From NCBI GenBank assembly GCA_001724265.1, contig MEDY01000289.1, positions 1-39,717 of the forward strand: a stretch of 39,717 nt of DNA, read 5' to 3'. The notes beneath the pieces were generated by a model that worked only from the letters and a program-made list of their open reading frames with translations, was not told the origin of the DNA and did no database searches. Shown here in pieces: positions 4,229-34,400 of the stretch. The stretch is from Rhizaria sp. SCN 62-66 (lineage: Eukaryota). The number at the start of each line of letters is the position of its first letter. Position 1 is the first letter of the stretch. The position numbers and the translations under genes are program-made.

Positions 4229-4896
4229 ACAACATCACTTGAGCTACACACAAATCGATTATATAGAAGACACGATTACTTACTTATCACGACTGTTTAT
4301 GCAATACACATTTTAACAACATGAGTTAGAAAGCTTAGTCAGAAAGCTTCTTTTGTATTCATTCTTGAATTCTGATTATGATTCCCTATCAAATTAGAAA
4401 GCTAATTGTACCCATTGCTTCAAGCAAATGAACACTGCAAGGTCTGTTGATGTTCCTGTTAGTTCGTTGTTGCGAAGTGTCATTCTCACTATACAGCCCA
4501 AGTCCTAGCGCACTGCTTGACTCTACTATCCCCCTTCCAAACAATTAATTATCGCCTAGTGATGACCATTGTATCACAGCAAGCAGCCGCATCTCATGCG
4601 ACAGACCGATTCCCGAATTTACATTACCACCAGAAATCAAAACTGATGCACACTGTTGCGATCTGTAATACGTCACAAAAAAGCGAAACAGATAGCGATG
4701 AAAGCTAACGAGGACACAACGTGAGTTGCTACTCCGAACAACTCACTGCCAGGGCTGAAGCAAACGCAGCGCACACAACAGCGAGCTCAGGAGATCCGCA
4801 ATCACAGTAAAAGTATTCTCGCATGATAGCTTAGCTTACCTAGACATCACTTGCTGGGACCTACACGCACCCATGCGTAGCAGTCGGCACGCGCGC

Positions 4897-7800: not shown

Positions 7801-8261
7801 CTGTGGTGGTGGTGGTGGTGCTGGCCGTTGCCGCCGTCGTCGTCGTCGTCGGAGCCATGCGCGTAGGCATCGTTGCCGCGGCGCTGAGCCTCGATTCTAT
7901 CGATGTCGACGCTGCCCGTCTGGTCGCGCGCGCCGTCGATGTCGATGGCGCGGCACGAGATGTGCGCGATGATCCACACCAGCTGCGTCTTCTCGTCCAT
8001 GTTCGGCGGCATCGCGCGGGGCAGCGCCTCGGTGACATACTTCCACTCACGCTCGCGCATCTGGTTGAGGTCGTTGGCGTAGGCGAGCTCGTAGTACGTG
8101 TGGCCCTTGGTGAGGATGCGGTAGTTCGGGCGGCCCGAGCTTGACTTGGCCGACTTGCGCTTCTGGAGCACGAAGAGCGGCGACGAGTCGATGTCGACGT
8201 ACTGCGAGAAGCGCTTCATGCGCGTGTACGTCACGCGCTTGACGGGCACGATGAAGACCAT
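4897..8261 (-). CDS. EDR2_C/DUF1336-domain membrane protein; exons 8261-6504 and 6333-4897 (~1064 aa)
   Basis: DUF1336 signatures SDPQGESWPVRCGPNYKKNKKKAPS..LFNLVGMDVFRS, FVVNFSMP, RMKALPRLVN, YLEYCLDIH and DWGFTIEGYEDDEQPEVILGSMRL. Two hydrophobic segments upstream. A phase-0 intron joins the two track ORFs. Stop TGA. Confidence 0.85.
6334..6503 (-). other. Spliceosomal intron, 170 nt
   Basis: Minus strand CAG|gtacgc...tttgcag|GAG, AT-rich, keeps frame inside the DUF1336 domain. Confidence 0.9.
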
Positions 8262-11697: not shown

Positions 11698-13443
11698 CGG
11701 CGTCGTGCTGGGCTGCAACAACTACAACGTCATCGACCTGGGCGTGATGCGGCCCTGCGACGAGATCGTCAAGGCCGCGATCGAGCACAACGCCGACATC
11801 GTCGGGCTGTCGGGGCTCATCACGCCCTCGCTCGAGGAGATGGTCAAGGTCGCCAAGGAGTTCCAGCGCCTCGGCTTCACCTTGCCCATCATGATCGGCG
11901 GCGCCACGACGTCCAAAATGCATACGGCCGTCAAGATCGCGCCCCAGTACGCGTCGCCGTGCGTGCACGTACTCGACGCGTCGCGCTCCGTCACGGTCGT
12001 GGCTTCGCTGCTGGACGAGAACATGAAGCGCCACTTCATGGACGAGATCAAGGAGGAGTACGAGGACCTGCGCAACGACCACTACGAGTCGCTCGACGAG
12101 CGCAAGTACGTGACGCTGGAGCAGGCACGCGCCAAGAAGTTCGCCATCGACTGGGCTGGCACGAAGCAGGAGGACTTGCCGTGCAAGCCGCAGTACCTGG
12201 GTACCAAGGCCGACAAGTGCATCGACCTGTCGCTGCTCCTGCCGCTGATCGACTGGAACCCGTTCTTCCAGGTGTGGCAGCTGCGCGGCAAGTATCCCAA
12301 CCGCGGCTACCCGCGCATCTTCCAGGACGCCGACGTGGGCGCGCAGGCCAAGTCGACCTTCGCCGACGCGGAGAAGATGCTCGCCGCCATCGTCGAGGGC
12401 AAGTGGCTCGAGGCGCGCGTCGCCGTTTCGTACTTCGCGGCGCAGGCCAACGGCGACGACATCGACGTCTTCTTCAGCGACGAGGACCGCGCGGGCGCGC
12501 CCGCGGCGACGTTCCACGGCCTGCGCCAGCAGCAGCAGAAGGAGGATCCTGAGCAGCCCTACGACTGCCTGTCCGACTTCATCGCACCCAAGTCCTCGGG
12601 GCTCAAGGATTACCTCGGCGCCTTCGCCTGCGGCATCTTCGGCGTCGAGGAGAAGGTCGCCGAGTTCCAGAAGGACCACGATGACTACAAGAGCATCATG
12701 GTGAAGGCGCTGGCCGACCGTCTCGCCGAGGCGCTCGCCGAGTACACGCACCGCGAGATGCGCACCAAGACTTGGTACGTTTACATTCACTGTCCAGTAT
12801 ATCTCTAATATCTCTATTATTCAATGTTGGTTCGCCTCCGTATATATTGTCAGCAAGCAAGTATGAGCAAACTATGTTTTGTTTCGCTTCTCTCGCGCTG
12901 CTGTGTGTCCCTCGTACTGCCGTGGCCGGCTTTTTGGTCCTGCCTTGGAATTTTTGGGACTAGATTCTATCTAGTTTTTACTTTATTCTCTTTTACACCT
13001 CGCTATTTGTCCACGATTTTCTTCAATGTCGGCACGATCTCACTCAATATTATCATTATGTTCCTGTTCCCATTTGCGTTTTGTTTCACCTACATCACAG
13101 GGGCTACGCCAAGGAGGAGGAGATGACCGCGGCCGACATGCACCAGATCAAGTACCAGGGCATCCGCCCCGCGCCCGGCTACCCGTCGCAGCCGGACCAC
13201 ACGGAGAAGGGCCTCATGTGGAAGGTCATGGACGTGGCCGCTCTGACGGGCATCACGCTCACTGACTCGTTCGCCATGATGCCCGCGGCGGCCGTTAGCG
13301 CCATCTGCTTCGCGCACCCCAAGGCGCGCTACTTCGCCGTCGGCAAGGTGCAGAAGGACCAGGTCACCGACTACGCGCAGCGCAAGGGTATGACCCTCGA
13401 CCAGGCCGAGTCGGCGCTCTCCGAGCTCCTCTCGTACATGTAA
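9329..13443 (+). CDS. MTR: Cobalamin-dependent methionine synthase; exons 9329-12774 and 13101-13443 (~1262 aa)
   Basis: [17 protein letters not shown] and GGCCGT (homocysteine/Zn), [10 protein letters not shown] (pterin), [11 protein letters not shown] and SGLITPSL (B12 binding), ALADRLAEA and [11 protein letters not shown] (reactivation). Splicing restores WGYA. Stop TAA. Confidence 0.97.
12775..13100 (+). other. Spliceosomal intron, 326 nt
   Basis: TG|gtacgt...catcacag|G, T-rich; removal gives TGG GGC TAC GCC (WGYA). Confidence 0.93.
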
Positions 13444-15059: not shown

Positions 15060-18000
15060 ATGAGTGGTGTCTCCAGATCTATGTCAATTGGCGCGCCATA
15101 CGCTGCTGAAGAATCTACCACAAGCTCAACGATGTTCTCTCCAGCAGCTGAGCAGCGTGCTCTCTACAGCGCCACTGAAAGCTCATCTCTGGGCAGCACT
15201 ACGAGCCCGACACTTTACGTCCCTATGTCGCCCACCTCGTCCGTGTCGCAGCTTGTGTCGCCGCCATACCGCGCGGACAGCGACGGTGCAGCTTCCGCAT
15301 TCGACCAAACACCGGACCAGCAAGAGCGGTCGCAACTGGAGCAGCGCGAGCAGCAGCAACAGCAAACGGGGCCCCATCAGTCCCGCCCGCGTCCCTGCCC
15401 GCGCCCCCTGCAGCAGCCCCCGCAGCCGCGGCCGCCGCCCGTTTCTGTGCAGTCCTCGCTCGCGCCGTCCGCCGCCGCGGGCTCGGCGACCGCGATGTCG
15501 ATGTGGCCGCTCTGCTCCTTCCCGCCCACGCCGGCGCTGACGATGCCGGTCGTCGTCCCGCGCTACCACCCCGCCGCGCGCGCCGTGCCCGCGCTCGTGC
15601 GCGCGTCGCTGGACCGCGATCGCGTGTCGGTGCTTTCGACCACGGCGGCCACAGGGAGGACGACGACGAGGACCAGAACCTTCGCGGCCTCAGCGTCAGC
15701 GTCGTCAAGGACGGCGGGGGCGTCTGCGGTGACGAGGCATGGCGGCACTCAGCTTAGAACAGCGCCAGCGGCAGCGATAGGTGGGGCACGCACGGCTTCA
15801 TCAAATCTTGCTTGCAACAGTAACAACAAGCAAGGCCATTACAACAACAGCAACAACGACATGACCAACGAGAGCGCACCTACGATGACACTGAACGACG
15901 CCACACCAGCAGCGGATTTGCAGTCCACGGCCTCTGCCACCCAACCCCCCATGCTGGACTCCAGCGCACAGCGGTTGGCCGACTCACCGGTGGACGTGGT
16001 TGAGTCGCCGCTGTTCCTGGCCGAGAGCGGGTGCCTCGGTTCGGTGCCGCCGCACGACTACGAGCACGGCTACGGCTACTGCTCGCGGCTAGAGGACCTC
16101 AGCAACCACATGCAGACGCACACGTATGGGCACAGCGGCGGCCACAGTCATTTGCACGGCGGGACTGGGCGTAGTGGAGGTCATTCGGTGACGGTGACTG
16201 TGAGGGCCAACAGTACCAACAACAACAACAACGGCAGCGACGCTTATGTGAACCATCCGAGTACCAATGGTTCACAGAATGTAACTGCTACACTGCAAAG
16301 CCCAGACATGAGCAATCTCACAGCAAACATGAACGCTCGCAGTCACATGCAACACAGCTTCAGTCATCAGGCTGGCATTGCAGACGGTCACAGCGACGAC
16401 GACGGCGAAGGTGAAGAACTCGAGATGACTGCTCTGGGGGGTAGTGATATGGGTAATCTCGAACGAGGACGCGGGCTTCCTCGCTCGTAGTCGCGTGACC
16501 GAGGGCGGCCTAACTTTGTGGCCTCCCCGGGCAGCACAGGGCGCGGATTGCGCCAGAGGCCGATGCGCGACCAGCACCCGAGCCAGGGCCAGGGCCAGGA
16601 GCAGGGACAGGGGCAGGGAAGGAGGCACAGGTCTCGCCGCCGCGCCGTCGTGCCTCTGTTCCTGCCGTTAGTTGACCAAAGGCTAGTGGCGATGCTACAA
16701 ACCCCGAGCAACGACGGCAAAAACAGTAAATGCAGTGGCAACAAAGACACCACAGATAGCAGCGCTGATGCGGAGGCAAGCGCGGTCACCACAGCGCCTA
16801 CGGTCGCGGCCCCCGTTGCGGCGCACACGGTCACAGTGCCCGCTTTGACCTTGCTGGGCACGCTGGGCCTCAAGTGTGCGCTGCCCATCGATGCGGCGAT
16901 CACGCTCACGGCGCACGGCCCCATTCCCCCCGCCGCGCCCATAGTAGCCTGCCCCGACACGGGCACGCTCTACACCGACGCGCGCACCAACCTCACGCTC
17001 TCCTTCCTGCCCCTTGTCGTCTTCTTCATCTTAGCCGGATTGTTCCTTGCCGCCGCCGTGTCGGCGTTCCCGTACCCCTCGCTGGTGTCGACCGCGCTCG
17101 TCATGGTCCCCGTCGCCGCGCTGCTTGCGCTCTGGGCACGCGTACGCGCGCGCGCGCGGCTCGGCTCGCTGCTGAGCGTCTTCGCGCTGGGCGCGTGCGT
17201 CATGCTTGTCGTCACCGTGATTGGGCTCATCGTCTTCTTGCTCATCGCCTGGTTTGCGGGGCTCTTTTCAAGTGCGGCCACAGTTGCCGACGCCACGCCC
17301 GGCGGGCTCTCTCGCGCCTCGGCGCTGCGGTTAGCACTCAGCTACGCCTTCGTCGCGCTCTTCGTCATCGCGCCCAGCGAGGAGGCGATCAAGTACCTGC
17401 TCCTAACGCATCCACGCGCGGCACCGCTGCTGCTGCGCAACTCTCCGGAGTCGCTGCTGTACCACCTGGCGTTTCTGGCGGGCGTCGGCTTCGCCCAGAA
17501 CGCCTCGATCCTGTGGCTGGCAGTGGTGACGTTGCTGCCGTACTACGCTGCGGCCCCGCGCGGGCACACCACCTGGCTGCTGGTCGCCATTACGCTCTAC
17601 AACGCCGTCTTCACAACGCTCTCGCACGTGTTGTCGGGCCACAGCGTCATCTCGACCATCATCCTGCGCCGCTCCTTCCCGCATCGGCTGCCGCGGCAGT
17701 CGCGCCGCTCGCGCCGCCGCTTCGCGCCCTGCCCCGCGTTTGTCGCGGACCGCTGGTACGGGGCCATGATCCCGCCTGTGCTTGCCAGGGGCGTGTTCCT
17801 CACGCTCTTCATTCTGCCCGTTGGCTGGCCCGGTACGTGTGCTTATTGACGACTTGTCGTGACATGTGTATGAACGTGTTTGTCCAGATTTTGTGTAGCG
17901 AATGTCCTGTCCTGTTTCCGAAGTTTTTTCTATGTTATCTACTGATGTTTCTCACTTCAGTGTGCTTTTCATTCCATATTTTGTTTCCTTCGTACAGGCA

Positions 18001-18236
18001 TTTGGGGCATTCTGTCCCTCTACGCTGGCGCGCTGCTGGTATGCGGCGCGCTCTACGCCTACTCGTCGCACCTCGTCCGGCTGCTGCCGCGGAGGTTCCA
18101 CGCCGGACTGGGCGTGCGGGCTACGGTTGAGAAGAAGCGCGGTCGCGGTAGTCCTGTTGCTGCCGTCACGACTGCGCTTCCAACCACGACCACGAATCCG
18201 CTAGGTTCCGCTGCTCCTGTTGGTACTGCAACATAA
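15060..18236 (+). CDS. PrsW-like multi-pass membrane protein with long disordered N-terminus; exons 15060-17832 and 17998-18236; in-frame TAG at 16488-16490 (~1003 aa if read through)
   Basis: Track ORFs 15060-16490 and 16518-17849 share a frame and are separated only by TAG plus nine open codons. The C-terminal half has many TM segments and APSEEAIKYLL, AGVGFA and HVLSG. Exon 2 adds GIWGILSLYAGALLVCGALYAY and ends TAA at 18234-18236. Confidence 0.68.
17833..17997 (+). other. Spliceosomal intron, 165 nt
   Basis: G|gtacgt...ccttcgtacag|GC, T-rich; splicing continues the hydrophobic frame. Confidence 0.85.
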
Positions 18237-18575
18237 CAGAGGAGAGGAGTTGAAAAAATGAAGCACATTGCTTTCACTACTTAGAAACATCCTATTTAGC
18301 TATTATTTTTGTCAAATACATGCTTTTATGTCTTGAACATCACATTTTTAGTTGAGTTTGTAGCTTTTTGCCCGTTGAGGCTGGCCATGATGCCGACTTC
18401 CCCGCCTTGTACCAGATCTTTATTTTTGTTTTCTTCTCCGCAAAGCTCCGTCAATAGAATAACAGACCTTTGTTCGCAAATTAACGGTTTATTTCACATA
18501 TTATTATCTTTTTATACCTCGAAATTCCTGCAGTGTGTGGCATTGCCACCTTCGTAAGCTTGAGGGTGAGAAGCG

Positions 18576-21500
18576 ATGAGCTCCCTCTACAAGCAGAAAC
18601 CAGCGGCGGCTCCTACCTCCACACCTGCGAATGCGACGCAACCGATGACAACTGGAGCACAACTGCCAGTTAGACAAGGACCGACTGGAGCTACCTCTAC
18701 GCAAACCATGTCCGACTCTGACACCGTACAGCCGCCTCATCCCCCTGCTGCCAATGTACCTGCAACCTCTGCGACAACAGCTGTGCCGATCGCAAACCCG
18801 CACCCACGCCCGCTCCCGATGCCGCCGCCGCCCTCCACCGCCGGTGCCAGTCTCTGTCGGCCTACGCTGACAGCGTCGACGTCATCTACCGTGAATGGGA
18901 ACGCTCGTTTTGCCCCGCTGAACGCGTCCGCAGCGACGCGATCGATCTATCGCAACCCCAATGTTAGCAGCAGCTTGAGCGGTAGCACGCGCAGTCACCC
19001 CACCGCGACACGGCACGCCAACAGCAGCAGTGCGAACGTGTATTCCACACAATGCGGCGCGGCTGCTGCCAGTCAGTCTGTGCCACCGCTGCCGTCACAC
19101 CCTGTTGCAGCCCCTGCTGCCGCGGTCCCTCCTGCAGCTGTGACGAACACTGGTGAGTCACCAAACAACCCCGCACCCCAACTTCCGCTGCAGCAACCGA
19201 GGCAACAGCAACAGCCACGGACAGGTTTCCGGCCACTTTGCCCCCCACCACCAGCAGCAGCAACAACGGCGGCAGCAGCAGCAACGGCCCCGTCAGCCGG
19301 AGCGCTCGCGAGCGTGGCGGCCGCGCGCGCGTCTCTCTACAGCGCAAGGCGCGCGCCGTTTGTCCCCGTGGATGCGAGCCAGGGCTCCAGCCAGAATCAG
19401 CCGCAGTCCCACCTGCAGCCGCAGTTCCACTCACAGTCTTCGTCTCAACCACAAAGCTCCATCCAGAGCTGGCGTCAGAGCCAGAACCAGAGCCAGAGTC
19501 CTAGTCTTGAGACCTCCACCCCCACCGATACCTTGATTGCAACTACGACTGACATTTTGTCTGCAGCTGACTGTGAGCCGGAGCCTGCACCCGCAAGCGT
19601 GTCCGCGCACCTGAACGCCTCGCAATGGCGCGCCGTGTCGCTGCCGCGGTCCTCAGCCGCCGTTGTTCTCGCAGGCCCCGGCTCCGGCAAGACGCGCGTG
19701 CTCGTGTACCGCGTCGCCTACCTTATTTCGGTTGCGCGGGTGCTGCCGGACCGGGTGCTCGCGCTTACTTTTACCAACAGGGCCGCCCGGGAGGTCTTGG
19801 CGCGCGTCAAGGCGCTGCAGAGGCAGGGCTACAGCGTGTTCTCGTCCATTGCCACCGGTGACGAGGTCGCTGACGGCGACGACAGTGCTGACTGTAAGAC
19901 CAATGGCGCAGCGAGTTCGAGTAACGGGAAAGGTGGCAGCGCTGCCGGTGTCGGCGTCGGTGGCGGCGAAAAGATGCCCTGGGTCAAGACGTTCCACGGC
20001 TTCGCTCGCATTCTGCTGTCGAACTTCGCGCAGTACATCGCGTTCGCGTCTGAACACGCGGAGCCAGAACCAGATGCTGATGAGACAAGCGCTGACGCAA
20101 GCATTGCTCTTGTTGCTGGCGCTGTCAGCACCGATACTGCACATCTCACAGCTGGTTCAGACTCAGACAGTGATTCAAGCGGTGAGTCTGAACGCGATGA
20201 CAATGACGACGTTGATATTGACGAGTCCGTTTATGATGAATTTTACGCTAGTGCCCGCAGCCAATACGGCAATGTTGTCGGTTGCGCTGCATCTACGCCT
20301 AGGCACACTCATGTGCTTACGAGTCATGCCCACAGCAACTCGCGTGCCCACGGTCACGCCTCGGCTCGCAACCGCGCTGTTGCGCGCGCTTACGCGTACG
20401 CCAACACCGGGGCTCCCGCTCCAGCGCACCAGAGCCTGCACAGCAGCAGTGAAGGTAACCCGCAGCAACAGCGCGGGCGCGACGGCTTCGTCATTGTTGA
20501 CGACAAAGAGCAGACGAAGCTACTTAAGACCTCGATCACGGCTGCGACGATCGGTCTTGCGACTGCGGCTGCATCAGTCTCTTCGATGTCAGCGAAGTCA
20601 GACAATGGCTCTTACTTACCCTTTGATACGAGTGTTGATGCCAACGCGATTGCTGTTACTGCGACTGCTTCTTCTTCTGAAGCACAATCAGAGACTTCTG
20701 ACTTGCCACAGCCCTACACAGGCCTGCTGCCGCGCCCGCTGCTCCCCTCGGCGCCGCTATCCCCGCCCTCCACAACGGAGACAGCGTCGCTGCTGACCGC
20801 GGTGGCGTCCGCGTTTGCGTGCGAGTGGGCCTCGGCGCGGGCCGCGGCGGCGACTGCGCGCAAGGGCGACCAATGCCGGCTCAGTCTGCCGGTCTGCGCG
20901 CTGCGGCTGGGGGACCTGGTGGCGGCGCAGACGCGGCCGCGTTGGCGACTGTGCACCGCGGCGAACAACGACAGCAACGACTGCCACAGCGAGCCAAAGA
21001 GCAGCGGCACAGCCGGCGATGCCTCGGGTGCCCACTCCGAGAGTGTAGTGTTGCAACCCGCGGTCAAGCGGCCCCGCATCGCTGCCAATGACTCTGCGAC
21101 TGCAGCGACTGCGTCTTCGACTGCGCATGAAGCTGAATCCACTGCCAGCGCGGCGACAGCGAGCATCAGCGCGGAGGCCGAGGCGCACGCCGCCGCGGCG
21201 CTCGCGGCAACGACTCCCGCTGCAGCGGCGCAGGCGTGCTTTAACGCGGTCATCTCCCGTGCTCGTGGGACGCCGACGCAGACAGCGTTGTCCGCCGCTA
21301 CTGAACAGCCCCTGCAACAGCAGTTGCACACGAGGACATCGTCACCGTCGCCACAGACTGCGCCCGTGCGCGTGCCGGCCAGCAAGTTCCTGTCCACACC
21401 GCTGCCGACGCAGACTGCCGCGCCCGCGCCCGGCGCGTTCAGCGCGTTCATCGACTGCGCGAAGGCGCACTTCCTTCGGCCCGTCGACGTGCTCGCCCTT

Positions 21501-24500
21501 GCCGTTGCGCTAATGCTGCCGCCGGCCGCGAGCGCCGCCGTGACGGCGCCTGCGACGGTAGCTGCGCCACAGTTGCAGGCGCAGGCGCACCCGCTGGCAA
21601 ACTTATACTCGTCGCAGCTGCAGCAGGAGACTCAGTCACGCTACCAGTCACGGTCTCAATCCCACTCACAACCGCAGCTACAGTCAAGTCGCTATGGCCC
21701 CTCTGCGTCTGCTGGCTTTGGCTTCAGCAGGCCCGGCGCTGCTAGCGCTAGTCTGGACACTGGGGCAGCGGCTCTGGCCGGCTCTTTGTTCAACACGGAT
21801 GCCGATCGCGCGAATGCCAATATGCTTGCCAACAACAAAATCAGCCATGGGAGCATGAGCCAAAACATCAGCGCCAGTCTCAACAGCAATCTCAACAGTA
21901 GTGGCTCCAATGGCGGGTTTGTGCGCGCGTCTGCGATGTTACCGTCGATGAACCGCGGCAATGCCCCTTCAGTTCGCAGCAACGCCCACTTCGGGTCCTT
22001 CATTAACAAGAAGCCTACCGCGCCTGCCATCGCTAGTGACGTCGCCGACGTGGTCGATGACGAGGCTGAAGCTCCCACCCCCCCGCGCGATACATTCATC
22101 TCCGAGGCGGCCGCACGCACTCTGTCGCTTGCGGCCATCATCGCGCCGTCTCTCGCCCATTGCGCCCCGCCGTCAGCCCCACTAGACTCGACATCGGCCG
22201 CCGCTGGTGCGCTGCTCGCCAACACCGTCGCCGGCTACCCACTCTCCCCAGTTTCTGGCCGCGCTGCACCCTTCGCCGCCACCTACGGCGCCGGCGTCTC
22301 GAGTCTCGCCGGCAGCGCAGGCCCCGGGTTGCGCGCGCTGCTGCTCGCGGCCTCGGGGCCCGACGGCGACCTGGCCGTGCTGCGCCAGGGCTTCCGGCCC
22401 TCGGTCTGCGCTGGGTGCGCGGCCAGAGGGCTCTCGGGAGGAGGAGGAGGCGCTCACACTGAGAGTGACGGCGAGATGCTGGAGTCGGCCCTGGGCGTCA
22501 TCACGCCGATCGACGGCCTTGCCGCAGCGGCGCAACATCAGCAACCATTGTAGCAGCCCAGGGCCGCGGCGTCGGCTTCGGCAGATAACCGGCGCCGTTC
22601 TCCTCAGCCCCCGGCTGAGCCGAAGTCTAAGTGCGACTGTGGGCACGGGTCCCAGCGCCGGTCCCGCGTTCTAAGGGGCTGCGAGGACTACGCGGCCGCG
22701 CTGAAGTCATTTTACTTGGACGCCGACATCGCCGCAATCTCGCCCCCGTCAGCACAGTCAATTACGGGTCAGTTACCCACCAGCCAATCAGCTGTGAGCC
22801 AGACTACGGCGAGCCAGGCCGAGGCGCGCCGGGCGGCCACTGTGAGCCGCGGGGTCCTGGACCTGACGACCCGCGTCGCCGAGATGCGACTAGAAGGCCT
22901 TCGCCGCTTACTTTCGCTGCACGCGACAGCGACGACAACAACATCAGCGGCCGTGGCAACTGGGAGTAACACGAATCCTTACAGCAGTGCGTCAAACGAC
23001 GGTCTGGCGGACGTGCTCCCCCGCGCCGCCTCGGTGCTGGCGGCGGCGCTGCCGACCATCGACACGCCGGCCTTTGCGCTGGCAGCGCTCGTGTTCGCGG
23101 CCTACGAGCGCGCCCTTGCGCGCGCGCGCGGCGCCGACTTCAACTCGCTGCTGTCGCACGCGCTGGCGCTGGTGTTGACCCACCGCTCCGTGCAGGGCTG
23201 GGCGGGCCGCCGGTTCGAGCAGGTGTTGGTGGACGAGTTCCAGGACTCGAACGCCATGCAGTACCTGCTCGTGCGCGCCATGGTGCCCGCATTTACCTGT
23301 GGCGGCCCGACCTCTCAGCATGCAGCAATCGCTCTCGACAATCATAACAGCAGCAGCAACAGCAACAGCAACAGCGGCACTAACAAAAGCTTGACTGTGT
23401 GCGACGCAGCCGCGCAGAACTCGTCTCAGCCGGGCAAGAAGGGTTTCTTCGTCGTCGGTGACCCGCACCAGAACATCTACCTGTGGCGCTTCGCGACGCC
23501 GCGCAACATGCAGCTTGTGTTCGAGGACTACGCCAGCGCGGTGCAGGTAAACCTGCGCGAGAACTACCGCTCCACGCCGCGCATCGTCGAGTTCTGCAAC
23601 AAAATCGTGCACGCGACAGCGCCCCCAGCACTTTTACACAGTCCAAATACAACCGGGAGTGGCGCCAAGACGAACGGAAACGGTCTCAATAACACCTACG
23701 ACGGTCGTCCGATAATGCCAGTAGAACGCAGCAGCAACGCCAATTGCGCAGCGCTCACCACGTATCGAGCTCCAACAACCGCTGCGTCGGCCGCAGCTGG
23801 TCCCGCCCCCCCGACTGCTGTCGGAGCCCGTGTCACGCTGCCGCTGGCGCTGCAGCCGCTGGCGCCGCCTCTGTCGTTGCCGTCGCGCATGCTGCTGCCG
23901 GCGCCGTGCCGCTCGCCCGCCGCGGCGCCTGGGCCGGTGCCGTGGCTGCTCGAGTGTCTGGCGCCGGAGCAGGAGGCGCTGTTCATCGCCAGCGCCATCT
24001 ACCAGCTTACGGCCGCGCGGCCCAGCCCCTGCGGCGGCTATTTCCAGCGCGCGCTGTGCGAGCCGCGCGAGATCGCCGTACTCTACCGGACCGCGGCCGT
24101 GGGCAAGACGGTCGAGGCTGCGCTGCGGCAGGCCGCCAAGGCGGCGGCCACCACCTCGGCGGCAGCGGCCCGGACCCAGGGCAAGGAGCGGGGCAGGGGT
24201 TAGCCGAAGCGCGAGAGCGGCTCTGGGGGACGCGAGCCGGGCGGTGGATACACAGGGTTTATGTTCGACTTCTCGTCGACATCAGACTCTGCATCAAGCG
24301 CTGGTAACGTCGCCAACAAGACGGGGCGCTCCCGCGCTGGTGCGGGCTTGACCGTGAGCGAGCGCATGATGCGGTACGTGCTTGCGCAGGGCTTCCCCGA
24401 CGTCACGGGCGACGGGCGGGCCGCAGTCCACGGCTGGGACCCCGAGTGGCGGCCCGAGCCCGGCACGGCAGCGGTCAGGCCGCAGCAGACGCAGAACAAG

Positions 24501-27500
24501 CACTTTGCGACACCGCTCTTTGGCAGCAGCAACAACAAGACTGTTGCCATGACTGATGGCGGCGGCAGCGTTGACGACGCCGAGCTTAGCAGTGGTACCA
24601 CCAAGCCTCTGATGTCGCTGCAGCGCCCGCTGCTGCACGTCGGCTTCACCGTCGTCGGTGGCAGCAAAAGCTACGACCGCAAGGACGTCAAGGACGCGGT
24701 TGCCTACGTGCGCCTAGCCGTCAACGGCGCTGACGCGCTCGCGCTGGAGCGCGCCGTCAACACTCCCCCGCGCGGCGTCGGACCCGCAAAGGTCGCCGCG
24801 CTGATGCACTTCCTGGAGCACGCTGACATTTTTCGGTACCGCGAGCGTGAGCACGAGCGCGAGCGCGCGCGCAGGCGGGCGCAGCGGCGTCGGCTACGTC
24901 CCGGCCAGGCATCTCAGACTGGAGCGAATCGCCCTTTTATCGCAGCCACATCGACCGCTAACATGAACGACGATGACGACGACGGCGGCGGCGACAATAG
25001 CGACGATGACGACTGCAGCTCTGACAGCAGCGACTCCGGAGATGGCAGCACCATAGACCACCCGCGCCGCCCCCGCGGCGGCAAGCGCGGTGGGCCGGAC
25101 TTTACTGACGTCTCGTTTAACCCCGCGCTGTATCGCGGCGAGGGCGCGCTGCCGCCCGGAGTCATCCCCAAGGCAGACCGCAAGGGCGCTGCGACCAACA
25201 CCACCGCGGCGCGCGCTGCCGCCTCCGCGCGGGCCGCGGACGAGCCCAACGCTGCCGCCGCCGCCGCCACAAAGGCTGAGGTCGACGCTGCTGCGAGGGC
25301 GAGGGCGGCTGCTGAGGGCAACGCGACCGGCGAGGGCGTGATTGTGAGCAAGGCTAGGCGGGAAATCAAGGGCCCGTCGAGGCGGCTTAACTTGTTCGAG
25401 CGGCTGCTGTGGGTATTGGACCAGGTCTTCGCGCCCGACGTCGACGCGGTGCTGCGGCAGCAGCAGGAGCAGGCGCACGCGCTCGCACAGGCGCAGCTGC
25501 AGATTCAGCAGCGGACGTTGCGGCAGCAGTCGCAGTTTTATAACCAATTCCAGCCCAGTTTCGACCCTTTCAGCGCTGCTGATGGTGCTGCTGCAAACTC
25601 CGGCAGCGGTGACGTTGTTTCAGATGCTTGGCACCGTCTATCCCCTGATGTCTTTGTCGGAACTGGCTCCGTGGCCGTCGCTTATACGAATAGTGGCACT
25701 GGTTTGAGCCCCATTAGCGTGCAGACGACTGCAGCAGGCATCAGCCCCACCGGTGCCTCACATGTACCGGCCAACGGTAACTCCGTGTTTGTGCGCGCCG
25801 GTGCGCTCTACGCCAACTTCAAGCGCAAGCCGCCTCAGTCAGCCACACCGACTGCATCGACCGCGTCACCGGTGCCGAACACGTGGACTCCATCAGCAGC
25901 TGTGCTCGCGCCTGCACCCGCGCCCGCGTCTGCACCTGCGTCTGTGTCTACACCTGCGACGGAGGCTTCGCCAGCCCAGCCAGGCGCGCAGCCTCATGCC
26001 GTCACGCCGGCGTCAATGGCCGATTTGCTTGCTGCAGTGAAGGCTTCTACGGACGCTGTGACAGCGGGCGACAACAGTACACCTGTCGCAAACACGCCCA
26101 CCGACACTGGTGTCATTTTCGCCACGCGCCCTGGTGCGAGCAGCAATGTGTTGGACCGGCTGATGGCGAACGCTGCCCGCGGCGGCGCGCGCACACCGAT
26201 CTCCAAGCGCAACTCCCCTGCGAAGGTCGCGAAAGCCGCGAACGCTGCAGCCTCGCCCGTTCCCGCTGCGGCGACGGTGCCCAGATCAGCGCCCGCCACC
26301 AAAACGACCGCGCCTGTCGCCGCTGCCAAGGCGGCTGCTGCTGACGCCAAGACCGGCAAGGGTACGCATGCCGTTTCCGCTGCGAGTGCGAGCGGGAGGG
26401 CGCCCGCGAGCGCGAAGTCGCTGTTTGCGCAGTGGCGGCTGCCGCGCGCAGGAGATGGCGGCGGCGCGGAGACTCGCTGCGCTGCTTATAGCGGCGTATC
26501 AATCCACCGTGCGAGCGCGAGTCCACCTGTCCCCGCAGGTGTCGTCGCGCCGATGGTAAAAATCGAGTTGGTTGATGATGGCGACGCTGACGCCAGTCGC
26601 GGCGATGCGGCCCCGACCACCGGCAGCAATCGCACTGACCACGACGATCTCGACGATGACGACGACTATGGTGCGAGCAAGAAAGACAATGCAGCCACAA
26701 GTTTCGCTGTCTTGACAGCGAGCAAGAGCACGAGCAGCACCCCCGCCGCCGTCGAGGATACAAACGGCGTCGGCGTGACCATTGGTGGCGACGTCAGCAA
26801 TGGCTCGCGTCCCATGTCCTACATTATCGCCACCACGAAGCGCCCCACGTCGACGCCGCCGTCCGGTTCCCTTGCTGGCAGCTACCACAACGACATAACA
26901 AGCGCTGGTGCGTTTGTCCCGGCGTTCGGCGCCAACGCCAACAGGTTTCTTCTTCAGTCCGCGGTCGACGGCTCTACGCGCGCTCTGCAGCGGCCCACCG
27001 TTACCCCGCTCTCGGTCGCCACTGCCGCCGCCGCCAATGGGGCTGACTCGGGCGCGGTGGCCAACAGCAGTGTTACCGGCACGACGGGTGCTCCAGCGAA
27101 GGCCGAGCCTCTGCTGCCTGCCGCCCCTGCCGCCACCGCGTCGGCCGCCGCGCGCACTGCGTTCCTCAAGGCGCGGCTGGAAGCGCTCGGCCGCCTCCTG
27201 GGGCTGCCAGCGCTGAGCCTGGTGCAGTGGCAGGCGCTAAGGGACTTCGCGCGGGTTGTCGTCGGCGCGCGGCGCATGGTCTTCGGACTCGGGTCCGCGT
27301 TGTCAGATGCACTGGTGCGTCATGCCCCGAGCGCTAGCGTGGCAGCGAACGACGGAAATGACACCATCAGAGGTGTCTCTACGTCCAGCACCACATCCGC
27401 GGTGTGTTCTAGTGCGGACACCGCAGCACCGAGTGCCAGCGCAGTGTGTGGCGCCGTCTGCGGCGGGTGCAGCCGCCCCGTCGCCCCCAGCTCCGGCGTC

Positions 27501-30476
27501 GCCGCGGCCGAGGCGCAGGCGTTGCGCCGGTCCTGGGGCGTCAAGCGGGCCGCCCGCGCCCAGCGCAGTGTCGCGGGCAGCGGCGGCGCGGACGGCGGCG
27601 GCGACGACGACTCGCGGAGCGACGAAGACGGCGACGATGACAGCGAGCACGAAGATGGAGTCAAGGGCGAAGACGGCGCCGACAGCTTGTTTTGTTCCGC
27701 GGCATCGTTGGCCGCCGGCAGCAATGGCCGCAAGCGTGGCCCTAACAGCTCCGGTCTCCACTGCCAGTGTGGGTGCTTTTGCCACCTCTGTCAGCCACAG
27801 AGGCCGCAACAGCGAATCCCGCCCTTGCTGCAACCTGACACCGATTCGCGCGCTGACGACGGCTACACGCAGGCTGGCACGATGGCGAAGACCGACGCCG
27901 CCGCGCCGACCGTGGGCGCGTCGATCGAGGCTGTGCTCACGTACATCGTCCACGCCGCCGGGTTTGCGGCCCTGCTCGCCCCCGCTGCGGCCGCGGCCCG
28001 CGCCATCAGGACTGCCCTCGCCAAGCAAGAAGGCGACTCTGCTGCCGCAGCATCTCTTGCGGCAGCGGTTGCAGCCGCCAACGGAATTAACTATGACGAG
28101 GACGCTGGCGACATCGAGGACAACAATAGCGCCTCTGCGGCGACTAAACTGAAGACTGAGTCTACCGGTAGCAAAGCCGTGGCGGCTGCGAAAAGTGGTA
28201 AGGGCAAAAACAAGACTGCTGGGATGCCTAAGATCACGGATTTCCTTGCCGCTGCTCCCAGAAACAGTTCGAGCTTAGCGCTGACGGGCGCCGCAACAAC
28301 ATCGCACGCGGGCAGCGGCCCGCAGTCCCGCTCTACGTCGCCCGCCTTCGTCACCGCCCGCTCTGAGAGCATCGCTAGCAGCAGTGACGGCACGATCTCC
28401 AAAGCGCAGGGTGCTGCACCAGCTGTCGCGGCTTCTCCTGCTGCGGCAGATGCCGCTGCCGCCGACGCTCTTGCAGCCGCAGGTGCCGCGGTGCCTTCAG
28501 CGGCGACCGAGGCGTGGGAGTCGTTGCGCGAGCTGCTGCTGCTCGCAAAGCGTGTCGACGATACTACTGCAGCGAATACCAATATCGCTGACCTCAGTTC
28601 CTATCTCGAGCTCTTGGGTTACGATAACCAGAAAATGTCGACTACTGATGATGACGATCTTGACAGTGGCACAAGCCCTGCTACCGCGCACGCCAGCGCG
28701 CGCGTCCTGCCGACCGAGAGCGACAGCGACAGCGAGGGCGAGACCTCGCGGGAAGGCGGCGCGCATGTGCGTGTGACGGTAAAGCGCGGTATCGCGTTCG
28801 CGAGTGGCACTCTGTTTGCTGCGTCTGCTCTCCGCAACAACGTTCATCGTCGCCCGACAGTGCCGCGACTGCAGCACGCGCCATTCGCGCCCAGTGACTC
28901 CCACACGGATGCTCAGCATGCCGCGCCCAGTCTGGACAACACCCCGCGTCACCGCCTCGCCTCGGTCGAGCGCGCGTGGCGCCATGCGGAGCCCGTCACC
29001 GAGTTCCTCTCGGACTGCCTCCTCGACCCCGCGTTGGGGACCGACTTCGCGCCGCAGAGCGATGAAGTCAAGCTGCCGCCTGCGCCTGGGAGCCTGCCTA
29101 CTGTCAAAGAGATGCCCACTGTCAAAGAAGAGGAGACCAAGCTGCAGTCAGAGACGCTCACGCGAACAACGGCAGACTTGCTTTCCACAAGTGGTCTTGC
29201 TGATGTAAGTAAAGGAGCTGCAGATGCGTCCCGTTTACTTCGTTTGCCTAGTCACACGATTAACTTCAACACAATTACCATTCCATCTGATACCGGCGGC
29301 GACGACAGTACACGAGCTCACCGCGCTAGCGCAACTGCAAGCGCGAATGCGAGTGCGAGTGTACGTGCTGCGGCCCCACGCTACACGCCTCCGGACGCGA
29401 ACAACCGCGTGACTCTGTCGACGATCCACGCGGCCAAGGGGCTCGAGTGGCGCGTCGTCTTCCTTGCAGGCGCGCAGGAGGGCTCATTGCCGCACGTGCG
29501 CACGCTTGCCGCACAGCACACCGTCGCAACAGTCGCGTCGGCGACACCGCAACAGCAGCGAACCCAACAGCAACATTTGGCCGAGAGTGAGGAAGTTGCA
29601 GAGGAGCGCCGAATGGGCTACGTTGCTGCAACGCGCGCACGGGAGCGACTGTTCGTAACCTACTGCATCCGTCGCAATTTCGGATATCACAACAACAACA
29701 ACAACAATGACAACAGTGCCGAGGCGCTATTGAAGGATGACGGCGGCTTCGCTGGCGGGCCCCGCGGCGCTGCGGCCGCTGCAGGCGCCGGGTCCGGTAG
29801 CGCTGGCGGCGTCGCCGGCGCTAATGCGAGCGGGGCGGGCAGCGAGTTGAGCCAGGAAGACATGGGGGCTCTCTTCGAGAAGCGGCAGCGCGAGCGCGAT
29901 GCAATCACGCGCAAATACGCACTCGTGCAACATCAAGAGCAGCTGTCACTGCGGCAACGGACGGCTGCGAAGCGCAATAGCTGCACGATGTCTGTATACT
30001 ACGGCGAGGATGAGGAGCAGCAACAACAATACGCGTTGCGGCTGTGGGCCAACCCCGCTGCTCACAGTCATACGCATCACCATCAACAACCCCCGCAACA
30101 ACAGCGGAGTCGCGGGCGCTTGTTAGGGACACTACCCGAGTTTTTGCCGTACTCGCTATCGCGTCTGTCACGTTTTTTTGGGCACATTGAGCTCGCTCCG
30201 ATATACGTTGCACCATCTACATCTACTGCATCTGCGACTTTGCCTGCGACTTTGCAGCGTCAGAACCAGGCAACGTCGTCGAGTGCAAGTTTGAATGCCA
30301 CCGGGACGCTAGGTCAGAGCGAGCTAGTTGAGCATGTTAGGGGGGACTGGGGCGTGCAGGTGCGCACGGTCTCTTTGGCGCGCCCGATCTTTGAGTTGAT
30401 CAATGGGGAGGCGCTGCAGCGTGAGGAGCAGCAAAGGAGGGACCGGCAGGAATGGCGCGGAGATGACGACGACTAA
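18576..30476 (+). CDS. Giant UvrD/PcrA/Srs2-family SF1 DNA helicase (~3966 aa if read through) with in-frame TAG at 22551 and 24201
   Basis: Motifs in canonical order in one frame: LNASQ, AGPGSGKT (19671), LTFTNRAA, TFHGFA, then TAG, DFNSLL, VDEFQDSNAMQY (23229), VGDPHQNIYLWRFA, ENYRST, IAVLYRT, then TAG, YDRKDVKDAVAYVRL..NTPPRGVG, TIHAAKGLEW (29421), EERRMGYVAATRARERL (29601). Final stop TAA, then AT-rich spacer. Confidence 0.88.
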
Positions 30477-31478: not shown

Positions 31479-34400
31479 ATGCTTCGCAGTCGGTTTACCA
31501 CTGCCGCGTGCATCCTTGTTGTCGTCGCGTGCGCTTCGTTTGCGGCTGCTCAACAGAGCCCCGGCAACGATGGCTGGCGTCAATGCACTACGACCAACTT
31601 TTGCTATCGCACACGCGAGCGCGCGCCGGTCTCTTACTCCCTCTCGAACGTTGAGCACACAGATAACGGCGTGACCACATTCCGTCTCAATGCCCAGAAC
31701 GTGGACCCCGCGCTGTACCCGTCACACCTTGAGGCCGAACTTGGTCTGCTGACCTCGGGCGCCGTGCACTTCCGCGTCACCGAGTCCTCGGATATCACCG
31801 ACAAGAAGGGCAAGCGCTTCGAGGCCGCGCCCTACGTGCTCGTTCCCGACGCCCTTACGATTGAGCCCAACCCGACGCGCTTCTTAGACGAGACCTATTT
31901 CACCATCTCGCGCCCTAACGGGACGCACGGGATTAAGGTACTCTTCAAGCCCTTCAAAATGCAGTACATCATCAACAAGTTCGAGGTCATCGCCGAGTTC
32001 AACAGCGAGAGCTTCTTCAACGTCGAGCAGCGCCGCGCGCGCCATGCGAGCGACCCCGCCGAGGCGTGGAAGGAGACCTGGGACGGCTGGACCGACACCA
32101 AGCGCTTCGGCCCCTCTGCGCTCACCTTCGACGTGTCGTTCCCGGAGTCGCAGGCGCTGTTCGGGCTCCCGGAGCACACCAACAACATCGCGCTCAAGCG
32201 CACGCGCGGCAAGGACCGCGAGCACGACGAGCCCTACCGCCTGTACAATCTCGACGCGTACGGGCACCCGCTCGACTCGCCCGCCGCGACCTACGGCATC
32301 GTGCCCCTCGTCACCTCGCACTCGATCCGCGGCGGCAACGGCAACGGCAACATCCAGTCCGCCGCTGACGGCAAGCCTCTGCGCGAGACGCGTCTGCGCC
32401 GCATGTACAACGATGCCGTGTCTGCCAGCTCCGCCGCGAAGCTGTTCTCGGTCTCCGCGGGCGTTTTCTTCCTGAACCCGTCCGAGACCTTCGTCGACGT
32501 GGGCCGCTCCGAGCGCGACGGCACCCCCTACACGCGCTGGATGGCCGAGTCGGGCGTGCTGGAGCTCTTCTTTCTGGGCGGCAACACGCACGCCGACGTG
32601 GCGCGCCAGTACCACCTACTCACGGGGCTGCCGCGACAGCCGCCAGCGTTCGCGATGGGCTACCACCAGTCGCGTTGGAATTATGTCGACGACAAGGACC
32701 TCACCGACGTGGCCAACAAGTTCACAGAGTACAAGATCCCCATGGACGTCATGTGGCTCGACATTGACCACACGGACCAGATGAAGTATTTCACCTGGGA
32801 CAAGAAGGCCTTCCCGAATCCTGCCGTGATGCAGAACTACATCGGCATGGACGGCCGCCAGCTCGTCACTATCGTCGACCCCCACATCAAGACCACGCCC
32901 GGTACGGTGAAATAACGAACGCCACGGTATTTGTGAACAAAATCACATCACAACACATATATCTGAACCATCGTTTTTCTCACTCTTTTAACTTGTTGTT
33001 GTCTCTTTTGCTGTGATTTGCATTACTGTTTGTCGCTCTAGGCTACCACGTGTACGACGCGATGACCGCGGGCGACCTGTTCATCAAGGACGGCGCCAAC
33101 AATACCTTTGTCGGCGAGTGCTGGCCGGGCCGCTCGAGCTGGGTTGACTTCACGCTGCCCAAGGCGCGCGCGCAGTGGGGCGAGTTCTTTGCGCTCGACA
33201 GCTACAATGGCTCCACCGTCAACCTGCACATCTGGAACGATATGAATGAGCCCTCGGTCTTTTCGGGCCCCGAGAAGACGATGCCCAAGGACGCGCTGCA
33301 CAACAACGGCGCGATCGAGCACCGCGAGCTTCATAACCTCTACGGCTTCCTCTACAACTCGGCCTCGAGCGACGGCCTCTCCGCGCGCCAGCTCAAGTCG
33401 GTCCCCGCGCCGCCGATGATGGCGCCGCCCGCAGACGCGCCCAAGGGCTCCGTTACCGTGACCCCGGTCGCTGGCGCGGCCATCTCGGCGCAGCGCCCGT
33501 TCCTGCTTACGCGCTCCTTCTTCGCCGGCACGCAGCGCATCGGCGCCGTCTGGACCGGCGACAACCAGGTACATGCTCACCCTCGCAATCTCCCTTGCTA
33601 CATCACATCCGTTTATTGCGATGTCGTCCAATTTCTCTTCGAATCAACGATTTTATGTTCCGTAAATTTTAAATATACCTGTTAGTGCATATCTCATCGA
33701 GTCATACCTTGTTTTGTTTCTATTTTCTCTATTGTGAATGTGAACAACAGGCCACGTGGGGCTTCCTGCGCTACTCGCTGCCCATGCTGATGAACCTCGG
33801 CATTGGCGGCATCTCCTTCTCCGGCGCTGACGTCGGCGGCTTCGCGGGCAACCCCGACGTGGAGCTGCAGACGCGCTGGTACCAGGCCGCCGCGCTGACG
33901 CCCTTCTTCCGCGCGCACAGCAGCAACGACACCGCGCGCCGCGAGCCCTGGCTTTACGGCGAGCCGCACGTGAGCAACATCCGCGACGCCATCCGCGTGC
34001 GCTACACGCACATGCCCTACGTCGTTACGCAGTTCCGCCACGCCAACGCCACCGGCCAGGCCCCGCTCCGTCCGCTGCTTCAGGTACGCGCGCGCCCTTG
34101 CATTCGCAGTGCAACAATTGAACGTGTGATGTCTTGAGTGATTATATCACAAATGAAACGATCATATTTTCATTGCATTACAGCTCTGGTATCATTCAAT
34201 TTCTCAAAAGCACATCATTCTCACACGTCTTTATTGTTCTCTTCTGACCGTTTTATGATAGGCGTTCCCCCTCGACTCCAAGGTCATCTTCACGGACGAC
34301 GTGTACATGCTGGGCGACGCCGTGCTGGTGGCGCCCGTGCTCGAGGCCGGCAAGTCCACGGTCGACTTCTACATGCCGCTCGAGACGGACGGCAAGCGCT

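What the first reader, a model, noticed from the sequence alone, without database searches (positions are those of the whole stretch)
22551..24203. Two TAGs split one helicase between essential motifs with no other decay
Seen: Walker A/Ia/Ib lie before TAG 22551, motifs II-IVa between the TAGs, and the 2B domain and motifs V-VI after TAG 24201. The linkers (QPRAAAS..EDYAAALKSFYL; PKRESGSGGREPGGGYTGF) are open in the same frame. There is no frameshift, TAA or TGA in about 3966 codons and the motifs are intact. Known: the first stop falls inside RecA-like domain 1A, so the fragments could not work separately. Inference: full-length translation; this is the strongest support for UAG decoding.
Basis: partly seen in the sequence, partly recalled or inferred. 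Interest (0 to 1): 0.85.

Follow-up and report, generated by a model that had tools for sequence, protein, structure and literature searches.

The report
Giant helicase gene with in-frame TAGs
One very long DNA-helicase gene of an uncultured wastewater protist carries two TAG "stop" codons but is otherwise intact, which suggests, without proving, that this organism does not use TAG as a stop signal.

Summary
Window 18576..30476 (+) is one 3,966-codon frame with two in-frame stops, both TAG (22551, 24201), and it ends in TAA. Walker A, Ia and Ib lie before TAG1. Motifs II to IVa lie between the TAGs. Motifs V and VI lie after TAG2. A 2,994-aa uninterrupted orthologue (P0125) is collinear with all three pieces.

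Both TAGs stand unchanged in DNA contigs of an independent study, so they are not assembly errors. Neither TAG sits in an intron of this genome's type: 6 of 6 verified introns are 140-326 nt, GC 0.41 or less, with GTAY donors, while the TAG flanks are 65-77% GC with no such donor.

A third TAG (16488) interrupts the neighbouring gene. All 7 recognisable gene ends are TAA or TGA.

Best reading (0.6): UAG is decoded rather than terminating. There is no transcript, peptide, tRNA(CUA) or eRF1 evidence. All three TAGs lie in unconserved low-complexity inserts, so the amino acid is unknown. A very young nonsense pseudogene (0.2) is not excluded.

UAG-only reassignment is already known (rhizarian exLh, Iotanema, some ciliates). 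This would be a new member of that kind, possibly cercozoan on a single-gene MetH tree.

The parts
18576..30476 (+). Single gene for a giant UvrD/Rep-family (SF1A) helicase: 3,966 codons including two TAGs, ending in TAA
22551..22553 (+). TAG1 (codon 1326), context ..CCA TTG TAG CAG CCC... It lies in a low-complexity insert between motif Ib and the UvrD 172-236 equivalent.
   Evidence: unchanged in X3 contig 21346-22649
24201..24203 (+). TAG2 (codon 1876), context ..GGT TAG CCG AAG... It lies 37 codons after motif IVa and 150 codons before the VVGGSKSY block.
   Evidence: unchanged in X3 contig 22772-25303 and X6 contig 23957-24315
19674..19694 (+). Walker A (GPGSGKT), in piece 1. Ia is at 19767-19787 and Ib at 19989-20006.
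23232..23246 (+). Motif II / Walker B (DEFQD), in piece 2. III is at 23457-23489, IV at 23559-23573 and IVa at 24075-24092.
29421..29651 (+). Motif V (TIHAAKGLEW, 29421-29450) and motif VI (ATRARERL, 29628-29651), in piece 3
30474..30476 (+). True terminator TAA. The next in-frame stop is 10 codons on, and the next 150 nt have GC 0.41.
15060..17849 (+). Neighbouring 929-codon ORF with a third in-frame TAG (16488-16490), ending in TGA. The N half is low complexity and the C half is a multi-pass membrane domain with a PrsW-like lead.

Best explanation
The region is one gene for a giant UvrD/Rep-type DNA helicase of an uncultured, GC-rich, intron-poor eukaryote. In this organism UAG most likely does not end translation. 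Ribosomes insert an amino acid at both UAGs and make one polypeptide of about 3,966 residues, while UAA and UGA remain the stops.

Inferred mechanism, by analogy with known UAG-only codes: a tRNA with anticodon CUA reads UAG but not UAA, possibly helped by weakened eRF1 recognition of UAG. The inserted residue is unknown; Gln, Leu and Glu have precedent.

Shown: the gene is one unit, the TAGs are real, and they are not in introns or at gene ends of this genome's type. Inferred: that translation continues, and how.
For: (1) One gene. P0125, a 2,994-aa single ORF from another metagenome organism, aligns collinearly with blocks in pieces 1, 2 and 3. Walker A, Walker B and motif VI lie on different pieces.

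(2) The frame is kept open. There are 2 stops in 3,966 codons, against 64-139 in the other frames. Codon-position GC (GC3 0.70-0.94) continues across each TAG.

(3) The TAGs are real. X3 is from a different study than the likely source run. Its contigs 21346-22649 and 22772-25303 have 0 differences. X6 contig 23957-24315 has 0 differences. No variant row at either TAG appears in any of the 4 runs laid. The exact pieces P0124, P0122 and P0123 recur on 6, 4 and 4 contigs. No uninterrupted version appears among 11,990 hits of the representative search.

(4) Not introns. All 6 of 6 verified introns (EDR2_C-like, MetH, GH31 x3, malic enzyme) are 140-326 nt, GC 0.41 or less, with donors GTACG/GTACA/GTATG. 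Of 163 and 156 frame-keeping GT..AG candidates across TAG1 and TAG2, the lowest GC values are 0.61 and 0.62. None of the 10 GTAY[GA] sites in the ORF is followed by AT-rich sequence. None lies within 2,155 nt upstream of TAG1 or 3,805 nt upstream of TAG2.

(5) Not gene ends. At 7 of 7 recognisable gene ends the stop is TAA (5) or TGA (2). The next in-frame stop follows 6-31 codons later and the next 150 nt have GC 0.31-0.57. After the three TAGs the frame stays open for 452, 549 and 2,090 codons, with GC 0.65-0.73.

(6) TAG-specific pattern. Only 3 of 2,047 stop triplets are flanked by 300 or more open codons on both sides, and all 3 are TAG.

(7) Precedent. In the rhizarian exLh all in-frame stops were UAG and the true stops were 56 UAA and 15 UGA (PMC5304391, passages read). 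A single-gene MetH tree places the window within a clade that holds the cercozoan rows (SH-aLRT 99).
Against: There is no direct evidence of translation or of UAG in mature mRNA. The listed contigs of the RNA run X5 do not cover either TAG. Two of the X5 contigs over the GH31 gene contain intron sequence, so that library may carry DNA or pre-mRNA.

The sample is tiny: 3 TAGs in 2 genes and 7 gene ends. All three TAGs lie in unconserved low-complexity inserts, so no conserved residue aligns with them. MetH (about 1,270 codons) and the other conserved genes hold no TAG, so UAG would be a very rare sense codon, about 3 in 8,857 counted codons.

The window holds no tRNA, and eRF1 could not be examined.

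In the nearest relative with DNA in hand (L002, MetH 73% identical), TAGs occur only 8 and 25 codons before the final stop of two ORFs. They probably terminate there, so any change would be lineage-specific.

Random nonsense mutation would give TAG about 61% of the time in this codon usage, so 3 of 3 TAG has p about 0.23.
Confidence: 0.6

Rival explanations
1. Very young pseudogene. The helicase, and independently the neighbouring gene, acquired nonsense mutations recently, and nothing else has decayed yet.
For: Three of three stops being TAG is only mildly unlikely (p about 0.23). If indels are rare, absence of frameshifts can be likely (P up to 0.52 at an indel:substitution ratio of 0.03). 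Ten strain SNPs in the ORF split 4 synonymous to 6 nonsynonymous, with no clear purifying signal. All TAGs sit in sequence under little constraint. Conserved genes hold no TAG.
Against: It needs three independent nonsense hits in two adjacent genes of a compact genome. There is no TAA, TGA or frameshift in 3,966 + 929 codons, and every catalytic motif is intact. At indel:substitution ratios of 0.1-0.2 the chance of no frameshift before a second stop arises is 0.002-0.12. The TAGs are fixed in runs of 2015-2025 from several studies. It does not explain 0 of 7 gene ends using TAG.
Confidence: 0.2
2. UAG is still a stop genome-wide, and this gene is expressed by gene-specific leaky or programmed readthrough using near-cognate tRNA.
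For: Two of the 3 TAGs are followed by C, recalled as a readthrough-prone +4 base. TAG1 is followed by CAG CCC, close to the recalled CARYYA motif. The very low TAG frequency would fit rare tolerated readthrough sites.
Against: No significant RNA structure follows any of the three TAGs: z = -0.87, -1.49 and +0.17, similar to three control stretches. Two successive inefficient readthroughs would leave very little full-length helicase. It does not explain why none of 7 gene ends uses TAG.
Confidence: 0.08
3. The stops are removed at RNA level. Either unconventional GC-rich in-frame introns are spliced out, or editing changes the codon (for example A-to-I turning UAG into UGG, as recalled for some filamentous fungi; no call checked this).
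For: TAG1 ends in ..TTGTAG, which resembles a YAG acceptor. Frame-keeping GT..AG pairs exist by chance (163 and 156). No RNA data cover the sites, so this is untested.
Against: All 6 of 6 verified introns are AT-rich, 140 nt or longer and have GTAY donors. No candidate across the TAGs has GC below 0.61 or such a donor, and one class of candidates would delete motif IVa. No editing system is known in this lineage, and no variant row appears at the sites in the RNA run, whose coverage there is unknown.
Confidence: 0.08
4. There are three separate polypeptides that assemble into a split helicase.
For: The PDB holds nicked PcrA deposited as separate 'subunit' chains (1qhh, 2pjr), so fragments of this fold can stay together. 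An ATG follows TAG2 at 24261.
Against: Eukaryotic mRNAs do not normally start translation at internal ORFs. No promoter-like AT-rich spacer separates the pieces, whereas every real gene boundary here has one. The orthologue P0125 is one chain. The frame between each TAG and the next ATG is kept open.
Confidence: 0.02
5. Assembly or sequencing artefact.
For: None found.
Against: Contigs of an independent study (X3) cover both TAGs with 0 differences, and X6 covers TAG2. The TAG-bounded pieces recur on 4-6 contigs.
Confidence: 0.01

Closest known systems
Nuclear code of the rhizarian exLh (Sainouroidea): UAG = Leu, with UAA/UGA as stops (PMC5304391; passages read)
   Same: Only UAG appears in frame. 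True stops are UAA more often than UGA, with no UAG (56/15/0 there, 5/2/0 here). UAG is scarce in highly expressed genes. A single-gene MetH tree places the window in a clade that holds the cercozoan rows.
   Different: There, 384 UAGs occur in 71 transcripts, many at conserved Leu positions. Here there are 3 in 2 genes, none at a conserved position. Here the residue is unknown and there is no transcript evidence. Relation to Sainouroidea is untested.
Iotanema spirale (Fornicata), UAG = Gln (same paper), and UAG-only reassignments in phyllopharyngean ciliates (PMC11687900; search listing and start of abstract only)
   Same: UAG is decoupled from UAA, which stays a stop. The predicted mechanism is a tRNA(CUA).
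   Different: These are unrelated lineages and have transcriptome-scale evidence. TAG1 here sits in a Gln-rich run (QHQQPL?QP), which is compatible with Gln but is not evidence for it.
UvrD/PcrA/Rep superfamily 1A DNA helicases
   Same: All core motifs are present in canonical order. Pfam UvrD-helicase and UvrD_C score above their cut-offs. The core aligns to PcrA, UvrD and Rep chains.
   Different: The protein is about 5 times longer (3,966 against about 650-770 aa) because of huge low-complexity inserts. The only comparable protein found is P0125 (2,994 aa, 34-38% identical in the blocks). Its cellular role is unknown.
Programmed stop-codon readthrough (UAG-CARYYA type, or stop plus downstream structure; recalled)
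   Same: UAG followed by C at 2 of 3 sites.
   Different: No significant downstream structure. There are two sites in one gene and a third next door. TAG is absent from gene ends.

Membership tests
UvrD/Rep/PcrA (SF1A) helicase | Walker A (motif I) and motif Ia | tested here: met
   GPGSGKT at aa 367-373 and TFTNRAA at 398-404. They align to PcrA 8-79. Pfam UvrD-helicase scores 85.6 bits against a cut-off of 23.
UvrD/Rep/PcrA (SF1A) helicase | Motifs II (DExx), III and IV | tested here: met
   DEFQD at 1553-1557, GDPHQNIYLWR at 1628-1638 and ENYRS at 1662-1666. They align to UvrD 172-298.
UvrD/Rep/PcrA (SF1A) helicase | C-terminal RecA-like domain with motifs V and VI | tested here: met
   Pfam UvrD_C scores 111.1 bits against a cut-off of 25.6. 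TIHAAKGLEW and ATRARERL align to PcrA 557-625.
UvrD/Rep/PcrA (SF1A) helicase | ATP-dependent DNA unwinding | not testable with these tools
   Needs the protein.
Nuclear genetic code with UAG as a sense codon | In-frame UAG in several otherwise intact genes | tested here: met
   There are 3 TAGs in 2 of the 7 genes with a recognisable end and no in-frame TAA or TGA. The sample is small.
Nuclear genetic code with UAG as a sense codon | UAG not used as a terminator | tested here: met
   0 of 7 gene ends use TAG; 5 use TAA and 2 use TGA. The sample is small, and the AAR2-like end is not checked by homology.
Nuclear genetic code with UAG as a sense codon | UAG aligned with one amino acid at conserved positions | tested here: inconclusive
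   All 3 TAGs lie in inserts that do not align with P0125. The neighbouring gene has no homologues of near length.
Nuclear genetic code with UAG as a sense codon | Cognate tRNA(CUA) and/or altered eRF1 | not testable with these tools
   The window holds 0 tRNAs and 0 Rfam matches. No genome is held.
Nuclear genetic code with UAG as a sense codon | UAG kept in mature mRNA, and peptides across it | tested here: inconclusive
   The listed contigs of RNA run X5 do not cover the TAGs and include intron sequence.
Spliceosomal intron of this genome | GTAY donor, YAG acceptor after a T-rich tract, 140-326 nt, GC 0.41 or less | tested here: not met
   All 6 of 6 verified introns fit. No candidate across either TAG does: lowest GC is 0.61 and no GTAY[GA] donor lies within 2 kb upstream.
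Decayed pseudogene | Frameshifts, mixed stop types, lost motifs | tested here: not met
   0 TAA or TGA and no frameshift in 3,966 codons, with all motifs intact. A very young pseudogene is not excluded.
Programmed readthrough element | Stable RNA structure just downstream of the stop | tested here: not met
   z-scores are -0.87, -1.49 and +0.17, against -0.35, -0.21 and +0.82 for controls.

The most novel reading that the evidence does not exclude
An uncultured, possibly cercozoan protist of wastewater reactors is at an early stage of UAG capture. UAG has already disappeared from gene ends and is decoded, but is still used at only about 3 per 10,000 codons, confined to low-complexity inserts of weakly constrained giant genes. 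This would be a natural snapshot of a stop-codon reassignment in progress, independent of the exLh case, because the nearest relative in hand seems still to end genes at TAG.
Probability: 0.35. Interest if true: 0.8.

Novelty: new member of a known kind. Interest (0 to 1): 0.6.

Why it matters
UAG-only reassignments in eukaryotic nuclei are known from only a few lineages. How a stop codon changes meaning (codon capture or an ambiguous intermediate) is still argued mostly from end states. If UAG has left the gene ends here but is barely used as a sense codon, this organism would show the intermediate state directly.

There is also a practical cost. Gene callers split this organism's genes at TAG: the databases hold this helicase as three unrelated proteins. 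That corrupts annotation of eukaryotic bins from wastewater metagenomes.

The giant UvrD-like helicase family (this protein and P0125) is itself undescribed in what I searched.

Tried and rejected
- RNA evidence. One read-laying run on 15001-35000 with X5 (RNA), X4, X3 and X6. The listed X5 contigs do not reach either TAG. No intron-like joint was listed, and 83 joints and 2,182 pieces were not shown. X5 contigs 33403-33671 and 34236-34622 contain GH31 intron sequence. The run therefore says nothing about splicing or expression here.
- More sequence of the same organism. The metagenome scan with MetH returned only a 4.9-kb contig of this organism (L001) and one relative (L002). Scans of viral contigs and genome contigs found only bacterial UvrD or nothing.
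- Relative L002. It has no long read-through TAG. Its TAGs near two gene ends are ambiguous.
- The neighbouring gene read through (P0121). No homologue of 510-1,626 aa was found. Its C half has only a PrsW-like lead (score 0.90). Such proteins can be about 250-340 aa, so a separate start downstream of TAG3 cannot be excluded.
- SNP test of constraint. 4 synonymous to 6 nonsynonymous, which is uninformative. The GH31 exon-2 rows of that call used a wrong codon phase and are dropped.
- Downstream RNA structure. Not significant.
- Taxonomy from GH31 exon 1. No clear signal: 46% identity to unnamed proteins and 31-36% full-length identity to plants, fungi and algae.
- My first list of gene ends was wrong in three places. 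6381 is on a shadow ORF. 6417 and 12808 lie inside introns. Searches corrected this, and one search replaces for that table.
- Paper supplements were not consulted. Tables S1-S3 of PMC5304391 could refine the comparison of UAG frequencies.
- Literature searches for a follow-up on sainouroid codes or a wastewater cercozoan code found none in the held library.
Full report
**What is there**

The window is GC-rich eukaryotic DNA: 55-69% GC in genes, about 31-45% in most spacers and introns. It matches sequence in bioreactor and wastewater metagenome runs.

Positions 18576..30476 (+) form one reading frame of 3,966 codons. The only internal stops are TAG at 22551 and TAG at 24201, and the frame ends in TAA. 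The other five frames of the same stretch hold 64-139 stops.

- Pfam places the first 100 positions of the UvrD-helicase profile in piece 1, positions 162-236 in piece 2, and UvrD_C in piece 3.
- Alignments to solved PcrA, UvrD and Rep chains put Walker A, Ia and Ib before TAG1. Motifs II, III, IV and IVa lie between the TAGs. The 2A/2B junction and motifs V and VI lie after TAG2 (coordinates).

One nuance: TAG1 lies in the huge insert at the 1B position, so it separates the two halves of domain 1A (Walker A from Walker B) rather than lying in a 1A element. Domain names are recalled.

**One gene, not three**

The representative search gave 11,990 hits with E of 0.001 or less. Only 3 had E of 1e-30 or less, and these were the window's own three pieces, filed as separate proteins of 1,325, 469 and 2,071 aa. 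The next hit was P0125, a 2,994-aa single ORF from another metagenome organism. P0125 matches blocks in all three pieces in the same order: query residues 336-488, 1500-1678, 1783-1855, 2014-2086, 2271-2297, 2875-2914 and 3599-3701. The remaining hits are ordinary 600-800-aa UvrD proteins.

**The TAGs are real**

In contigs of run X3, from a different study than the probable source run, pieces 21346-22649 and 22772-25303 have 0 differences and 0 gaps. X6 piece 23957-24315 also has 0 differences. X4, a slightly different strain with 10 SNPs in the ORF, has a piece 24178-25008 that carries TAG2, but with only 23 letters to its left. No variant row at either TAG appears in any of the 4 runs. The exact pieces recur on 6, 4 and 4 contigs.

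**Not introns**

I verified six introns by homology:

| Gene | Intron | Length | Donor |
|---|---|---|---|
| EDR2_C-like (-) | 6503..6334 | 170 nt | GTACGC |
| MetH | ~12777..13101 | about 326 nt | GTACGT |
| GH31 | 32902..33041 | 140 nt | GTACGG |
| GH31 | 33569..33750 | 182 nt | GTACAT |
| GH31 | 34084..34261 | 178 nt | GTACGC |
| malic enzyme (-) | 36266..36097 | 170 nt | GTATGC |

All have GC of 0.41 or less, and the donor motif is GTACG/GTACA/GTATG. All six overlap the low-GC segments found blind; the MetH intron spans two of them.

No low-GC segment lies near either TAG. Among 163 and 156 frame-keeping GT..AG pairs of 30-600 nt across TAG1 and TAG2, the lowest GC values are 0.61 and 0.62. 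Of the 10 GTAY[GA] sites in the ORF, none is followed by AT-rich sequence. The nearest one upstream is 2,155 nt from TAG1 and 3,805 nt from TAG2.

**Not gene ends**

After correcting the gene models, the 7 recognisable gene ends use TAA 5 times and TGA twice. Each is followed by another in-frame stop within 6-31 codons, and the next 150 nt have GC 0.31-0.57. The three TAGs are followed by 452, 549 and 2,090 open codons with GC 0.65-0.73. These are the two helicase TAGs and TAG 16488 in the neighbouring 929-codon ORF.

Of 2,047 stop triplets in six frames, only these three have 300 or more open codons on both sides.

**What remains open**

- Nothing shows that ribosomes pass the TAGs. The one RNA run's listed contigs miss both sites and include intron sequence.
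- The window holds no tRNA or Rfam match. No genome is held. Further scans recovered no more of this organism.
- All three TAGs sit in low-complexity inserts that do not align with P0125. The neighbouring gene has no homologue of near length. The encoded residue therefore cannot be inferred.
- No significant RNA structure follows the TAGs.

The pseudogene alternative is weakened but survives.
- With this codon usage, 61% of random nonsense changes give TAG, so 3 of 3 has p about 0.23.
- The chance of no frameshift before a second stop arises ranges from 0.52 to 0.002 for assumed indel:substitution ratios of 0.03 to 0.2.
- Ten strain SNPs split 4 synonymous to 6 nonsynonymous.
- Against it: three nonsense hits in two adjacent genes with no other lesion, persistence over runs of 2015-2025, and 0 of 7 gene ends using TAG.

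**Relatives and lineage**

MetH of the window is 73% identical to P0005 (locus L002, GC about 52%) and to P0006. The named proteins with the highest identity are cercozoan: Mataza 63%, Paulinella 60-61%.

In a quick single-gene tree the window, P0006 and L002 form a clade (SH-aLRT 100). That clade sits inside a 13-row group with the cercozoan rows, one euglenid and unnamed rows (SH-aLRT 99). I used 33 of the 120 listed proteins, chosen for having names or high identity. This is a lead, not a placement; GH31 gave no signal.

In L002, TAGs occur only 8 and 25 codons before the final stop of two ORFs, and never inside long frames. Any change of code would be specific to the window's lineage.

**Comparison with what is known**

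UAG-only reassignment is documented for:
- the rhizarian exLh (UAG = Leu; 384 in-frame UAGs in 71 transcripts; true stops 56 UAA and 15 UGA) and Iotanema (UAG = Gln), from passages of PMC5304391 read;
- ciliates (PMC11687900, PMC10553269; listing and start of abstract only).

The same paper notes that the relative Guttulinopsis ends nearly all genes in UAA, a state that would ease capture of UAG. The window and L002 show the same TAA dominance.

Searches of the held library found no report of a follow-up on sainouroid codes or of a wastewater cercozoan code.

**Verdict**

The feature is real and not an artefact.

| Reading | Confidence |
|---|---|
| UAG is decoded in this organism and the helicase is made full-length | 0.6 |
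| Very young pseudogene | 0.2 |
| Gene-specific leaky readthrough | 0.08 |
| RNA-level removal of the stops | 0.08 |
| Split protein | 0.02 |
| Artefact | 0.01 |

If true, it is a new member of a known kind. Its unusually low UAG usage could mark an early stage of reassignment.

Noticed in passing
window 15060-17849 (+), TAG at 16488-16490: A third in-frame TAG joins a 476-codon low-complexity N half to a 452-codon multi-pass membrane C half. The C half has a PrsW-like intramembrane protease lead (Atlas feature score 0.90, 192 shared features). No AT-rich spacer lies at the TAG.
   Followed up: partly
window 9329-13443 (+): The B12-dependent methionine synthase gene has an intron of about 326 nt (~12777-13101). 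The 1,159-aa ORF product held in the databases is truncated. The last exon is 13102-13443 and the true stop is TAA at 13441.
   Followed up: yes
window 4897-8261 (-): The EDR2_C-like gene has two exons (8261..6504 and 6333..4897) with a 170-nt intron. The 502-aa ORF on the + strand at 4873..6381 is a shadow of exon 2, not a gene.
   Followed up: yes
window 587-4228, 18576-30476; protein P0125: Proteins here are inflated by low-complexity A/S/T/Q-rich inserts: AAR2-like is 1,213 aa and the helicase 3,966 aa. P0125 (2,994 aa) shows that a family of giant UvrD-like helicases with inserts at the same places exists in at least one other uncultured eukaryote.
   Followed up: partly
L002 4092, 4434, 4392: In the 73%-MetH relative, two ORFs (anoctamin-like and EDR2_C-like) have a TAG 8 and 25 codons before their final stop (TAA for the anoctamin-like ORF). 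It is unclear whether TAG or the later stop ends them. The other three gene ends examined are TAA.
   Followed up: partly
window 13601-15030: An AT-rich stretch of about 1.4 kb (GC 0.36-0.43) has no ORF of 150 aa or more on either strand and no Rfam or tRNA match. It is much longer than the other spacers.
   Followed up: no
window 33403-33671 and 34236-34622 (run X5): Contigs from a poly(A) metatranscriptome run contain GH31 intron sequence. That library therefore carries pre-mRNA or DNA of this organism.
   Followed up: no
window 33505-33535 (run X4): A cluster of six differences spaced by multiples of three lies within 31 nt of GH31 exon 2, all at third codon positions once the phase is corrected. 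This suggests a second, more diverged strain or paralogue in that sample.
   Followed up: no
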